Of a stretch of 64,000 bases of DNA, positions 35,261 through 64,000 are shown piece by piece. Made by a program: the position numbers and the translations under genes. The stretch is from the human T2T-CHM13v2.0 reference genome, Homo sapiens. Under the pieces are notes generated by a model. That model saw only the letters and a program-made list of their open reading frames with translations, was not told where the DNA came from and did not search any database. Where the stretch lies: the NCBI RefSeq assembly GCF_009914755.1, contig NC_060925.1; one strand, given 5' to 3'. Every line of letters starts with the position of its first letter. Within the stretch, counting starts at the first letter, position 1.

Positions 35261-35559
35261 ACAATGAGAACACATGGACACGGGAAGGGGAACATCACAC
35301 TCTGGGGACTGTTGTGGGGTGGGGTGAGGGGAGAGGGATAGCATTAGGAGATATACCTAATGCTAAATGACGAGTTAATGGGTGCAGCACACCAGCATGG
35401 CACATGTATACATATGTAACTAACCTGCACATTGTACACATGTACCCTAAAACTTAAAGTATAATAATAATAAAATAAAATAAAATAAAAAAGAAAAATA
35501 AGAAATGTTGTATATATTCAAATCATCTTAACATATCATTTCATTCAAATGCATGCTCT

Positions 35560-59325: not shown

Positions 59326-59560
59326 ACAATGAGAACACATGGACACAGGAAGGGGAACATCACACTCTGGGGCCTGTTGTGGGGTGTGGGGAGGGGGGCG
59401 GGATAGCATTGGGAGATATACCTAATGCTAGATGATGAGTTAGTGGGTGCATTGCACCAGCATGGCACATGTATACATATGTAACTAACTTGCACATTGT
59501 GCACATTTACCCTAAAACTTAAAGTATTAAAAAAAAAATAAAAAAGAGTGGTGAGCCTTG

Positions 59561-61879: not shown

Positions 61880-62550
61880 CCTGGGTCATTTAGAACTGTG
61901 TTGCTTAATTTTCAAATATGGAGAGGTTTTTCAGATAATTTTCTACTACTAATGTCTAATTTAATTTCATAGTAGTCAGATAACATACTGTGTATGAAAT
62001 CAAGCTTTTTAAATTTACAGAAACTTGCTTTCTTGCCCAGCATATGGTTTATCTTGATAAAAATTTATGTGTGGTTGAAAATAATATAAATTTTTTGGAG
62101 GGATGAAATGTTCCACAAATGTCAATTAAATCAAGTTGGCTGACAGTGTTGTTCAGGTCTTCTATATACTTGGTGACTTTCTGTCAATTTCTTCTATCAA
62201 TTGTCAAAAAGCAAATGTTGAGGTTTCCAACTACAACTGTGTTTGCTTACTGCTTCATTTCTGTCAGTTTTTCCTCTGTGTATTTTGAAGTTCTGTTATT
62301 TGCCACATACACATTTAGAATTGTGATGTCTTTTTGATTAATTGCTCCCTATACTATTATGTGAAGCCTCTTTTTTATTCCTGGTTATATTCTTTATTTA
62401 AAATCTATTTGTCTGGTGCTAATATAGCCACTCTAGCTTTCTTAGAAGTGTCTGCATGATATGTCTTCTTCCATCTTGTATTTTTTACCCTATCTGTATC
62501 TTAAAGTGTATTTCTTATAGATAACATACAGTTGACTCTTGCTTTCCAAT
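61880..62550 (-). mobile_element. Old L1M ORF2 (endonuclease region) fragment
   Basis: Antisense GTGTTGTTCAGGTCTTCTATAT..GTATTTTGAAGTTCTGTTATT..AATATAGCCACTCTAGCTTTC. Confidence 0.75.
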
Positions 62551-62747
62551 CAACCTATAGATGACCAATACCAAATTAATCTGTGTTACTAAAAATCAAA
62601 AATTGTGTCTCCCTAGTCTCATTTGGGGTCGATACTATAATTCATCATAACTCAAATATATCAATGCCCAATATGTATATGAGGTAAAGACAATGACTCA
62701 TCATTAATAATGGCTAATAAACAGAGATATTTCTAACTAACACTTTC

Positions 62748-63225
62748 TTTTTTTTTTTTTTTTAAATTTATTTTTTTATTGATAATTCTTGGGTGTTTCT
62801 CACAGAGGGGGATTTGGCAGGGTCATGGGACAATAGTGGAGGGAAGGTCAGCAGATAAACAAGTGAACAAAGGTCTCTGGTTTTCCTAGGCAGAGGACCC
62901 TGCGGCCTTCCGCAGTGTTTGTGTCCCTGATTACTTGAGATTAGGGATTGGTGATGACTCTTAACGAGCATGCTGCCTTCAAGCATCTGTTTAACAAAGC
63001 ACATCTTGCACCGCCCTTAATCCATTTAACCCTGAGTGGACACAGCACATGTTTCAGAGAGCACAGGGTTGGGGGTAAGGTTATAGATTAACAGGATCCC
63101 AAGGCAGAAGAATTTTTCTTAGTGCAGAACAAAATGAAAAGTCTCCCATGTCTACTTCTTTCTACACAGACACGGCAACCATCCGATTTCTCAATCTTTT
63201 CCCCACCTTTCCCCCCTTTCTATTC
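62748..63225 (-). mobile_element. 5'-truncated SVA (SINE-R part only), SVA_F-like
   Basis: Poly(T) then TTCTTGGGTGTTTCTCACAGAGGGGGATTTGGCAGGGTCATGGGAC..CCCTGATTACTTGAGATTAGGGATTGG; TSD CTAACTAACACTTTC at 62733-62747 and 63266-63280. Confidence 0.96.
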
Positions 63226-63226
63226 A

Positions 63227-63269
63227 CTGGTTTCTCTTCAGACCGAATAAATCTTTCGCCTTTTACTAA
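63227..63269 (+). pseudogene. U5 snRNA 5' fragment (about nt 6-48), inverted relative to the SVA
   Basis: CTGGTTTCTCTTCAGACCGAATAAATCTTTCGCCTTTTACTAA vs recalled U5A CTGGTTTCTCTTCAGATCGCATAAATCTTTCGCCTTTTACTAA (41/43); includes loop 1 GCCTTTTAC. Confidence 0.93.
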
Positions 63270-63343
63270 CTAACACTTTCAATTATTTAAAACAAAAGGC
63301 AAGCAAAGTTCACAAAACTAAACTTGTTCAAAACATAGTTTCC

Positions 63344-63503
63344 ATATCATTAGGAGATATACCTAATGCTAAATGACGAGTTAATGGGTGCAGCACACCT
63401 GCATGGCCCATGTATATATATGTAACTAACCTGCACATTGTGCACATGTACCCTAAAACTTAAAGTATAATAGTAATAAAATAAAAATTAAAAAAAAAAC
63501 AAC
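63344..63503 (+). mobile_element. Short L1PA3/4-type 3' end
   Basis: CATTAGGAGATATACCTAATGCTAAATGACGAGTTAATGGG..tail; TSD AACATAGTTTCC at 63332-63343 and 63504-63515. Confidence 0.95.
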
Positions 63504-64000
63504 AACATAGTTTCCTTTATGACTCCCAGGATCTCAGGCCAGCTTAATCCATTTGACATACTGAATTAACACCTTAAGTGAGTCATTGCATTTTATAAAT
63601 CAATTGGACATCTAGCCTAACATGATTAAAGTTAATCTCATTGGTAATGTTGACTTTTAAAATTCTGATTATTGCCCTACTCCCCTGTTTCTCTGAGCTA
63701 TTTTAAAACTGTTTTATCTATCAATTGCTCTGCTGTATTTTGATGGTTAATGAAACAGAATTTAATACACTCAAGCCACGTCATCTAGGTCCGACCAACC
63801 ATGGTACCATCTCATGGGGAAAATGGCCTTAAACTGAGCTCATTTTGATACTTCAGTGAGAAAACCTGACTATCCTGGGGTTCATGATTCTTTATAACAA
63901 ATAGTCATTCCTAATGCAAATGTTATGTACCAAAAGTTTGCTTCATCTTCCCATAGTAGTGGTGTTAAAAATGGTGGCTAGTTTCCAAGGCTAGATCACA

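What the first reader, a model, noticed from the sequence alone, without database searches (positions are those of the whole stretch)
62733..63280. U5 snRNA-SVA inverted chimera inside a single TSD: apparent twin priming on two different RNAs
Seen: one perfect 15-bp TSD (CTAACTAACACTTTC) encloses an antisense SVA SINE-R plus poly(A) (62748-63225), one extra A, and a sense 43-nt U5 5' fragment (63227-63269). The last 4 nt of the U5 match (CTAA, U5 nt 45-48, at the 3' edge of single-stranded loop 1) are also the first 4 nt of the TSD. On the SVA strand the nick site reads TT/GAAAG. SVA TATTC resembles U5 TACTC at the internal join. Established: L1 ORF2p mobilises SVA in trans, twin priming produces inverted 5' segments, and inverted U5 pieces are known on L1 insertions. 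Inference: the first nick primed SVA poly(A), the second-strand 3' end (..TTAG) primed on U5, and the two cDNAs were joined head to head, so two non-L1 RNAs were captured in one event. This differs from same-orientation U6/L1 chimeras. I do not know of a described U5-SVA case but cannot search.
Basis: partly seen in the sequence, partly recalled or inferred. Interest (0 to 1): 0.88.

Follow-up and report, generated by a model that had tools for sequence, protein, structure and literature searches.

The report
Inverted U5 snRNA–SVA retrotransposition chimera
A shortened SVA retrotransposon and a backwards-facing piece of U5 spliceosomal RNA were pasted into the genome together in one LINE-1-driven event, which is a rare but already published kind of insertion.

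Summary
A perfect 15-bp target-site duplication (62733-62747 and 63266-63280) encloses an antisense 5'-truncated SVA with its poly(A) (62748-63225) and a sense U5 snRNA 5' piece cut in loop 1 (to 63269). One correction: the "extra A" is U5 sequence. The piece comes from a U5 variant beginning ATTCACTGG, seen in four other retro-copies. So the U5 copy reaches nt 1 and shares ATTC with the SVA end.

It is not new. Doucet et al. [quoted passage not shown] My scan of this genome found inverted loci cut at 48 (this one, the only SVA case), 43 and 46. This locus is therefore very probably their published case. The empty-site test could not be run.

The parts
62733..62747 (.). Left copy of the 15-bp target-site duplication CTAACTAACACTTTC. 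Its 3' end (…CTTTC) is the inferred first-strand primer.
   Evidence: identical to 63266-63280, and only these two copies exist in the window.
62748..62763 (-). Poly(A) tail of the SVA copy, read as T16 on the + strand.
62764..63225 (-). 5'-truncated SVA (SINE-R part only), antisense to the + strand.
   Evidence: 91.8-97.4% identity over about 460 nt to 9 other copies; relative L019 has a VNTR and a hexamer run beside the shared part; homology to other copies ends at 63225.
63222..63225 (.). ATTC shared by the SVA end and nt 1-4 of the U5 variant, giving microhomology at the head-to-head join.
   Evidence: SVA copies read …CTATTC; all 5 copies of the variant (the window and 4 other retro-copies) read ATTCACTGG. 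In at least two of them the A could instead belong to the TSD, so TTC is certain and A is probable.
63226..63265 (+). Unambiguous U5 snRNA sequence (nt 5-44), in sense on the + strand and so inverted relative to the SVA.
   Evidence: alignment to U5 genes found with RF00020.
63266..63269 (.). CTAA shared by U5 nt 45-48 (the 3' edge of loop 1) and the start of the TSD. This is the inferred priming site of the second-strand 3' end (…TTAG-3').
   Evidence: In the MFE fold of U5, nt 36-46 form the loop region and nt 47-48 the first stem pairs.
63266..63280 (.). Right copy of the TSD.

Best explanation
This was one L1 ORF2p-mediated insertion that used two RNA templates (heterologous twin priming).

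1. The + strand was nicked at ACTTTC/AATTAT. Its 3' end primed reverse transcription on the poly(A) of an SVA RNA. That cDNA stopped after about 462 nt of SINE-R.
2. The other strand was cut 15 bp away. Its 3' end (…GTTAGTTAG-3') paired with CUAA at the 3' edge of loop 1 of a U5 snRNA. It was extended to the 5' end of that RNA.
3. The two cDNA 3' ends were joined through the shared ATTC, and gap filling produced the 15-bp TSD.

Shown: the anatomy, the microhomologies, the uniqueness of the junction, and parallel loci. Inferred: the order of the nicks, priming rather than capture, and the single event.
For: - One perfect 15-bp TSD encloses both parts, with nothing else between them.
- The parts lie in opposite orientation, and U5 is cut at nt 48 in loop 1.
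- 4 nt (CTAA) are shared between U5 and the target, and 3-4 nt (ATTC) between U5 nt 1-4 and the SVA end. So the U5 copy runs from an internal priming point to the very 5' end of the RNA, as run-off reverse transcription predicts.
- The nick on the SVA-priming strand (TTTC/AA) is closer to the L1 endonuclease consensus than the one on the U5 side (TTAG/AA). Doucet et al. use the same argument.
- The junction 26-mer occurs once in the 3.1-Gb assembly with up to 2 mismatches allowed, and the control gave 0.
- Two further loci have the same design with L1 as partner. C8:56.8 Mb has a 16-bp TSD, a TTCT/AA nick and U5 cut at about 46. C9:92.63 Mb has a 15-bp TSD, about 3.96 kb of antisense L1, a TTTA/AT nick and U5 cut at about 43.
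- In print: Doucet et al. 2015 report four inverted U5/L1-or-SVA copies cut at 36, 48, 43 and 46 and give the twin-priming model. Law & Burns 2026 report that all U5 in U5/L1 chimeras are 3'-truncated and 80% are antisense. The preprint 10.1101/2025.10.07.680917 reports a PCR-validated somatic antisense U5/L1HS insertion.
Against: - No empty allele or orthologous site could be inspected, so 'single event' rests on parsimony.
- The U5-side nick TTAG/AAAT is not far from an endonuclease site, so the order of nicks is not fixed by the sequence.
- Stand-alone truncated U5 pieces are common: 59 of 78 truncated copies in my scan have an abutting TSD by script. This raises the prior for independent U5 insertion somewhat.
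- The exact source gene of the ATTCACTGG variant was not found. The nearest full-length copy (C1:209.61 Mb) reads ATTACACTGG.
- Rfam's U5 model did not score the piece in the window.
Confidence: 0.85

Rival explanations
1. Same single event, but with the roles of the nicks reversed. U5 was primed at the first nick (TTAG/AAAT), as in stand-alone truncated U5 pseudogenes, and the SVA poly(A) was primed at the second nick.
For: Stand-alone loop-1-primed U5 copies are frequent (Doucet section 8). TTAG/AA has 4 of 6 consensus positions.
Against: The SVA-side site TTTC/AA fits the consensus better. The two L1-partner loci also have near-consensus sites on the retrotransposon side (TTCT/AA and TTTA/AT). 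Doucet et al. report the same asymmetry for all four of their cases.
Confidence: 0.08
2. The U5 piece was not primed by the target. A pre-made U5 cDNA or fragment was captured by microhomology-mediated end joining while the SVA 5' junction was being repaired.
For: Microhomology at both ends (ATTC and CTAA) is equally what end joining would use.
Against: Cuts cluster in the same loop and carry target complementarity. In the scan, 76 of 78 truncated copies end at nt 41-53. Doucet fig. 3 shows more complementarity than chance (legend and text read). This points to annealing-primed synthesis, since a free cDNA would need its own primer at that same place.
Confidence: 0.06
3. Two independent insertions: a stand-alone truncated U5 pseudogene and an SVA landed at the same spot.
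For: Stand-alone U5 pieces with the same cut are common.
Against: An SVA primed at 62747 would make its own duplication of the same 15-mer, giving three copies, or a different TSD. Only two copies exist. No target sequence lies between the SVA 5' end and U5 nt 1, and they overlap by ATTC.
Confidence: 0.03
4. The junction was inherited: a source SVA lay beside an antisense U5 piece, and the whole was retrotransposed as one read-through RNA (5' transduction).
For: SVA 5' transductions are known (recalled, not checked here).
Against: The junction 26-mer is unique in this assembly. Of 105 U5-core places examined (96 plus 9 new), only the window has SVA beside the U5 5' end. The insertion would also have had to end exactly at U5 nt 48, with 4 nt of target homology, by chance.
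Confidence: 0.02
5. Template switching or RNA ligation, as in U6/L1 chimeras.
For: It is the common route for snRNA/L1 chimeras (Doucet). One same-sense U5(1-83)/L1 copy exists at C3:40.51 Mb.
Against: That route gives both parts in the same orientation. Here they are opposite.
Confidence: 0.01

Closest known systems
Inverted U5/L1 and U5/SVA chimeras formed by twin priming (Doucet et al. 2015, Mol Biol Evol, PMC4476161; Group IV 'twin')
   Same: Everything tested matches: one TSD around both parts, opposite orientation, U5 3'-truncated in the exon-binding loop, target/U5 complementarity, and the endonuclease consensus on the retrotransposon's strand. One of their four copies is cut at position 48, as here, and SVA is named as a partner.
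   Different: Nothing in kind. I could not open their Fig. 1B or supplementary table S1 (a PDF), so identity of the locus is inferred. I add that the piece comes from a U5 variant and reaches nt 1, with an ATTC overlap.
Classical L1 twin priming / 5'-inverted insertions (Ostertag & Kazazian 2001, as cited; Kojima 2010, PMC2912911)
   Same: The second-strand 3' end primes internally on an RNA, and the two cDNAs join with microhomology.
   Different: In the classical case both primers use the same RNA. Here the second template is a different RNA. 5'-inverted SVA itself is rare: 4 of 477 (Kojima 2010, passage read).
Stand-alone 3'-truncated ('tailless') U5 pseudogenes, made by template choice
   Same: They share the same U5 cut zone and the same target complementarity. 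In my scan 76 of 78 truncated copies end at nt 41-53 (Doucet section 8).
   Different: In those the TSD abuts U5 nt 1, and priming is at the first nick. Here 478 nt of SVA plus tail lie between.
U6/L1 template-switch or ligation chimeras
   Same: An snRNA is joined to the 5' end of a 5'-truncated retrotransposon inside one TSD.
   Different: In those the orientation is the same and U6 is full length (Doucet; Law & Burns).
Antisense 5S rRNA/L1 and tRNA-half/L1 chimeras (Law & Burns 2026, PMC13174262)
   Same: A small RNA, cut at a loop, lies antisense to the L1, and twin priming is proposed.
   Different: The captured RNA differs, and the partner is L1, not SVA.

Membership tests
Inverted snRNA/retrotransposon chimera by twin priming (Doucet 2015) | A single TSD encloses the snRNA piece and the retrotransposon. 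| tested here: met
   15/15 identical, with only two copies in the window.
Inverted snRNA/retrotransposon chimera by twin priming (Doucet 2015) | The two parts lie in opposite transcriptional orientation, with the snRNA 5' end facing the retrotransposon 5' end. | tested here: met
   Poly(T) lies at the left, the SVA is antisense, and U5 is in sense with nt 1 at the join.
Inverted snRNA/retrotransposon chimera by twin priming (Doucet 2015) | The snRNA is 3'-truncated in a single-stranded segment (U5 loop 1). | tested here: met
   The match ends at nt 48, and the fold of U5 puts nt 36-46 in the loop.
Inverted snRNA/retrotransposon chimera by twin priming (Doucet 2015) | The snRNA cut and the target site are complementary. 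| tested here: met
   CTAA is shared at 63266-63269.
Inverted snRNA/retrotransposon chimera by twin priming (Doucet 2015) | An L1 endonuclease-like site lies on the retrotransposon's priming strand, and the retrotransposon has a poly(A) tail. | tested here: met
   ACTTTC/AATTAT and T16. The U5-side site reads TTAG/AAAT.
Inverted snRNA/retrotransposon chimera by twin priming (Doucet 2015) | An empty pre-insertion site carries one TSD copy and neither part. | not testable with these tools
   Only this one human assembly is held, with no ape or pangenome sequence.
SVA retrotransposon copy | SINE-R 3' module with a poly(A), homologous to copies that carry a VNTR and hexamer repeats. | tested here: met
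   91.8-97.4% identity to 9 of 9 copies. L019 has a VNTR and a GAGAGG run. The window copy itself lacks these modules because it is 5'-truncated.
Stand-alone 3'-truncated U5 pseudogene | The TSD abuts the U5 5' end. | tested here: not met
   474-478 nt of SVA plus tail lie between the left TSD and U5.
Template-switch snRNA/L1-type chimera | The snRNA and the retrotransposon have the same orientation. | tested here: not met
   The orientation is opposite.

The most novel reading that the evidence does not exclude
The captured RNA is not canonical U5A or U5B but a minor variant (ATTCACTGG…CGAAT). This assembly holds only truncated retro-copies of it (5 of 5) and no exact full-length gene. Two of the three intact inverted chimeras found (this one and C9:92.63 Mb) carry it, against 3 of the other 75 truncated copies. 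That works out to about 0.01 by my own hand hypergeometric arithmetic (no call), and it is post hoc. The variant might be unusually accessible to ORF2p at the second-strand end, for example if it is poorly assembled into snRNPs. Alternatively it may simply have been expressed when SVA and young L1 were active.
Probability: 0.08. Interest if true: 0.35.

Novelty: already known. Interest (0 to 1): 0.14.

Why it matters
It is a clean textbook example. ORF2p can start a second reverse transcription on an unrelated nuclear RNA at the second-strand break, and an SVA RNA mobilised in trans behaves like L1 in this respect. No L1 RNA is found in the product. But the class, its mechanism and an SVA-partnered case were published in 2015, extended in 2025-2026, and seen somatically. 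The locus therefore adds no new principle. Its value is as a well-resolved reference case: both microhomologies are defined, and the U5 copy reaches nt 1.

Tried and rejected
- Rfam cmscan of window 62000-64000 at E<=10 gave four weak snoRNA/lncRNA hits, all far below gathering scores, and no U5. I treated these as chance and identified U5 by alignment to U5 genes instead.
- The supplementary xlsx of Doucet 2015 holds no 'SVA', 'chr1' or 'twin'. Their table S1 is a PDF that cannot be read here, and Fig. 1B is an image. So the published locus list could not be compared directly.
For those 40 hits only 60 nt per side were obtained, so a distant TSD or partner could be judged only from the 40-50 nt next to U5.
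- The automated TSD finder left 19 of 78 truncated copies unassigned. They break down as follows:
  - the window;
  - 2 inverted U5/L1 loci;
  - 2 A-tailed copies;
  - 5 duplicated copies with old L1 upstream and no TSD;
  - 3 with abutting TSDs carrying 2 mismatches;
  - 4 with diverged TSDs by my eye;
  - 2 unresolved (L090, L105).
- The fourth published case (cut at 36) was sought with a shorter core. Two copies end at nt 36 (C18:25.66 Mb and C3:112.07 Mb). Neither has SVA beside it, and I did not resolve their partners.
- SVA subfamily and age were not determined, because no labelled consensus is available here.

Full report
**The observation.**
- The 15-mer CTAACTAACACTTTC stands at 62733-62747 and 63266-63280 and nowhere else in the window on either strand.
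- Directly after the left copy comes T16 (62748-62763).
- Next come 462 nt (62764-63225) that align at 91.8-97.4% to 9 of 9 other genomic copies fetched.
- One of those relatives (L019) has VNTR arrays of period 37-50 and a GAGAGG hexamer run beside the shared part. So the family is SVA, and the window holds only its SINE-R 3' module, antisense, with its poly(A).
- Homology to other SVA copies stops exactly at 63225. In one search, 39 of the 40 scored matches (of 1285 candidates) cover only query positions 1-56, and only the window itself covers the whole query.
- In 9 of 9 fetched copies SVA goes on with CACAAA, where the window goes on with ACTGG.

**The U5 identity.** Rfam's cmscan on the window did not list U5 even at E<=10. 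I therefore found the genome's U5 genes with RF00020. This gave 29 matches at E<=0.001, 48 of 236,249 candidates were scored, and the best was 113 bits. I then aligned the piece to them. Window 63222-63269 is colinear with U5 nt 1-48, with 4 mismatches to the top gene.

A scan with the piece itself and the contexts of its hits showed other truncated U5 copies that begin with the same ATTCACTGG and carry the same CGAAT. In the whole genome this 5' end occurs in five places, all truncated retro-copies at different sites. So it is the 5' end of a U5 variant RNA. It follows that the U5 copy in the window reaches nt 1, and that SVA (…CTATTC) and U5 (ATTCACTGG…) overlap by ATTC (63222-63225). TTC is certain. 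In at least two of the sibling copies the A could instead belong to the TSD.

At the other end, U5 nt 45-48 (CTAA) are also the first four bases of the TSD. In the MFE fold of U5, nt 36-46 form the loop and nt 47-48 the first stem pairs.

**Mechanism.** The geometry is that of twin priming with two templates.
- The + strand nick reads ACTTTC/AATTAT, close to the L1 endonuclease consensus. Its 3' end is followed by poly(T), which means it primed on the SVA poly(A).
- The opposite strand, cut 15 bp away, ends …GTTAGTTAG-3' (context TTAG/AAATATC). It can pair with CUAA of U5. The U5 copy then runs from that point to nt 1, as run-off reverse transcription predicts.
- The two cDNA ends share ATTC.

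Template switching or RNA ligation would give the same orientation for both parts, so they are excluded. Two independent insertions would leave a third copy of the 15-mer or a second TSD, and neither is present. Inheritance from a source element is unlikely. The junction 26-mer is unique in the 3.1-Gb assembly at up to 2 mismatches, with a control of 0.

What the sequence cannot decide is which nick came first, and whether the U5 cDNA was target-primed or captured by end joining. No empty allele could be inspected.

**The class in this genome.** A U5 core pattern (nt 10-43, up to 3 mismatches) hits 96 places, with a control of 0.

Of the 96, 18 are long copies and 78 are truncated. Of the truncated ones, 76 end at U5 nt 41-53. 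A TSD abutting U5 nt 1 was found by script in 59. The 19 leftovers were checked by eye and by BLAST against SVA-bearing loci and the window's L1 blocks:
- the window, which is the only one with SVA beside U5;
- L115/L130 at C8:56.8 Mb (below);
- L081/L131 at C9:92.63 Mb (below);
- two A-tailed copies;
- five duplicated copies with old L1 upstream and no TSD;
- the rest, which have diverged TSDs or are unresolved (L090, L105).

L115/L130 has a 16-bp TSD (AACTTTTCATTTTTCT), an antisense L1 3' end with its tail, U5 cut at about 46, and a TTCT/AA nick. L081/L131 has a 15-bp TSD (TCCTCTGGTGTTTTA), about 3.96 kb of antisense L1, U5 cut at about 43, and a TTTA/AT nick.

A shorter core (nt 6-36) added nine places, none with SVA beside U5.

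**What is in print.** Doucet et al. 2015 (PMC4476161; passages, sections 6, 8 and 13) analysed human snRNA copies of at least 90% identity and more than 25 nt. They report seven U5 copies associated with retrotransposed sequences. [quoted passage not shown] All four cuts lie in the same single-stranded loop and show complementarity to the insertion site. The endonuclease consensus appears only when the site is read in the retrotransposon's orientation. They propose exactly the twin-priming model (their Fig. 1A c', d'). They also describe the stand-alone 3'-truncated copies as 'template choice'.

Law & Burns (bioRxiv 2025 and Cell Genomics 2026, PMC13174262; passages) state that all U5 in U5/LINE-1 chimeras are 3'-truncated and 80% are antisense. 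A 2025 preprint (10.1101/2025.10.07.680917; passages) reports a PCR-validated somatic antisense U5/L1HS insertion with the same explanation. Kojima 2010 (PMC2912911; passages) gives 4 of 477 SVA insertions as 5'-inverted.

Full-text searches for U5 snRNA with SVA found only the Doucet paper.

**Is this the published locus?** My three intact inverted loci are cut at 48 (the window, SVA), about 43 and about 46. These match three of the four published positions. The window is also the only SVA-partnered case among the 105 places examined. I therefore infer, at roughly 85-90%, that the window's insertion is Doucet's sequence #4. I could not confirm it. Fig. 1B is an image, table S1 is an unreadable PDF, and the readable xlsx does not mention SVA or chr1.

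**Verdict.** The finding is already known as a class, and very probably as this very locus. Interest is low. What I add is the variant origin of the U5 piece, the ATTC overlap at the join, and a genome-wide tally in T2T-CHM13.

Noticed in passing
window 63222-63269; loci L026/L036 (C9:1.91 Mb), L030/L048 (C6:5.79 Mb), L031/L053 (C10:6.51 Mb), L081 (C9:92.64 Mb); gene-like copy L006/L034 (C1:209.61 Mb): A U5 variant (5' ATTCACTGG, CGAAT at nt 23-27) is present only as five truncated retro-copies. The nearest full-length copy reads ATTACACTGG. Its upstream block resembles that of the chr15 U5 genes, so it looks like a real gene. Two of the three inverted chimeras carry this variant.
   Followed up: partly
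L081 + L131 (G000:C9:92633452-92637490): An inverted U5/L1 chimera. A 15-bp TSD (TCCTCTGGTGTTTTA) encloses about 3.96 kb of antisense L1 (95% identical to the window's L1 over 1489 nt) and a sense U5 piece cut at about nt 43. The nick reads TTTA/AT.
   Followed up: yes
L115 + L130 (G000:C8:56817100-56817800, minus strand): An inverted U5/L1 chimera with a 16-bp TSD (AACTTTTCATTTTTCT). Only about 90 nt of L1 3' end are present. Compared with the L1 in L131, that stretch lacks about 19 nt between two CCAT repeats. U5 is cut at about nt 46.
   Followed up: yes
L085-L089 and L139 (C20:29.6-31.1 Mb, C21:2.59 Mb, C22:4.33 Mb, C15:14.9 Mb): Six near-identical copies of a 36-nt U5-like piece (nt 6-41) sit beside old L1 sequence. 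They have no TSD and are flanked by an inverted 9-mer (TTAACCATC … GATGGTTAA). They probably represent one old event spread by segmental duplication, but the origin is unexplained.
   Followed up: no
L107 (G000:C3:40513987-40514140, minus strand): U5 nt 1-83 is followed directly by what I take, from recall only and not checked by any search, to be L1 in the same orientation. This is the template-switch type of U5/L1 chimera, and position 83 matches one reported by Doucet et al.
   Followed up: no
L132 (C18:25.66 Mb) and L134 (C3:112.07 Mb): Two U5 pieces end at nt 36. L134 lies between what look, by eye, like an Alu poly(A) tail and the poly(T) of an antisense Alu. L132 may be the published inverted case cut at 36. 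Their partners were not resolved.
   Followed up: no
L027/L039 (G000:C1:7.90 Mb): U5 nt 6-49 is followed by about 25 A and a 12-bp TSD (GAAAATGACCAG). This is a polyadenylated truncated U5 pseudogene, cut at the same loop.
   Followed up: no
window 63336-63499: A sense L1 3' end with poly(A) lies about 55 nt downstream of the right TSD. It resembles the 3' ends of the window's L1 blocks at 35440-35500 and 59480-59540. It is an independent insertion and not part of the chimera.
   Followed up: partly
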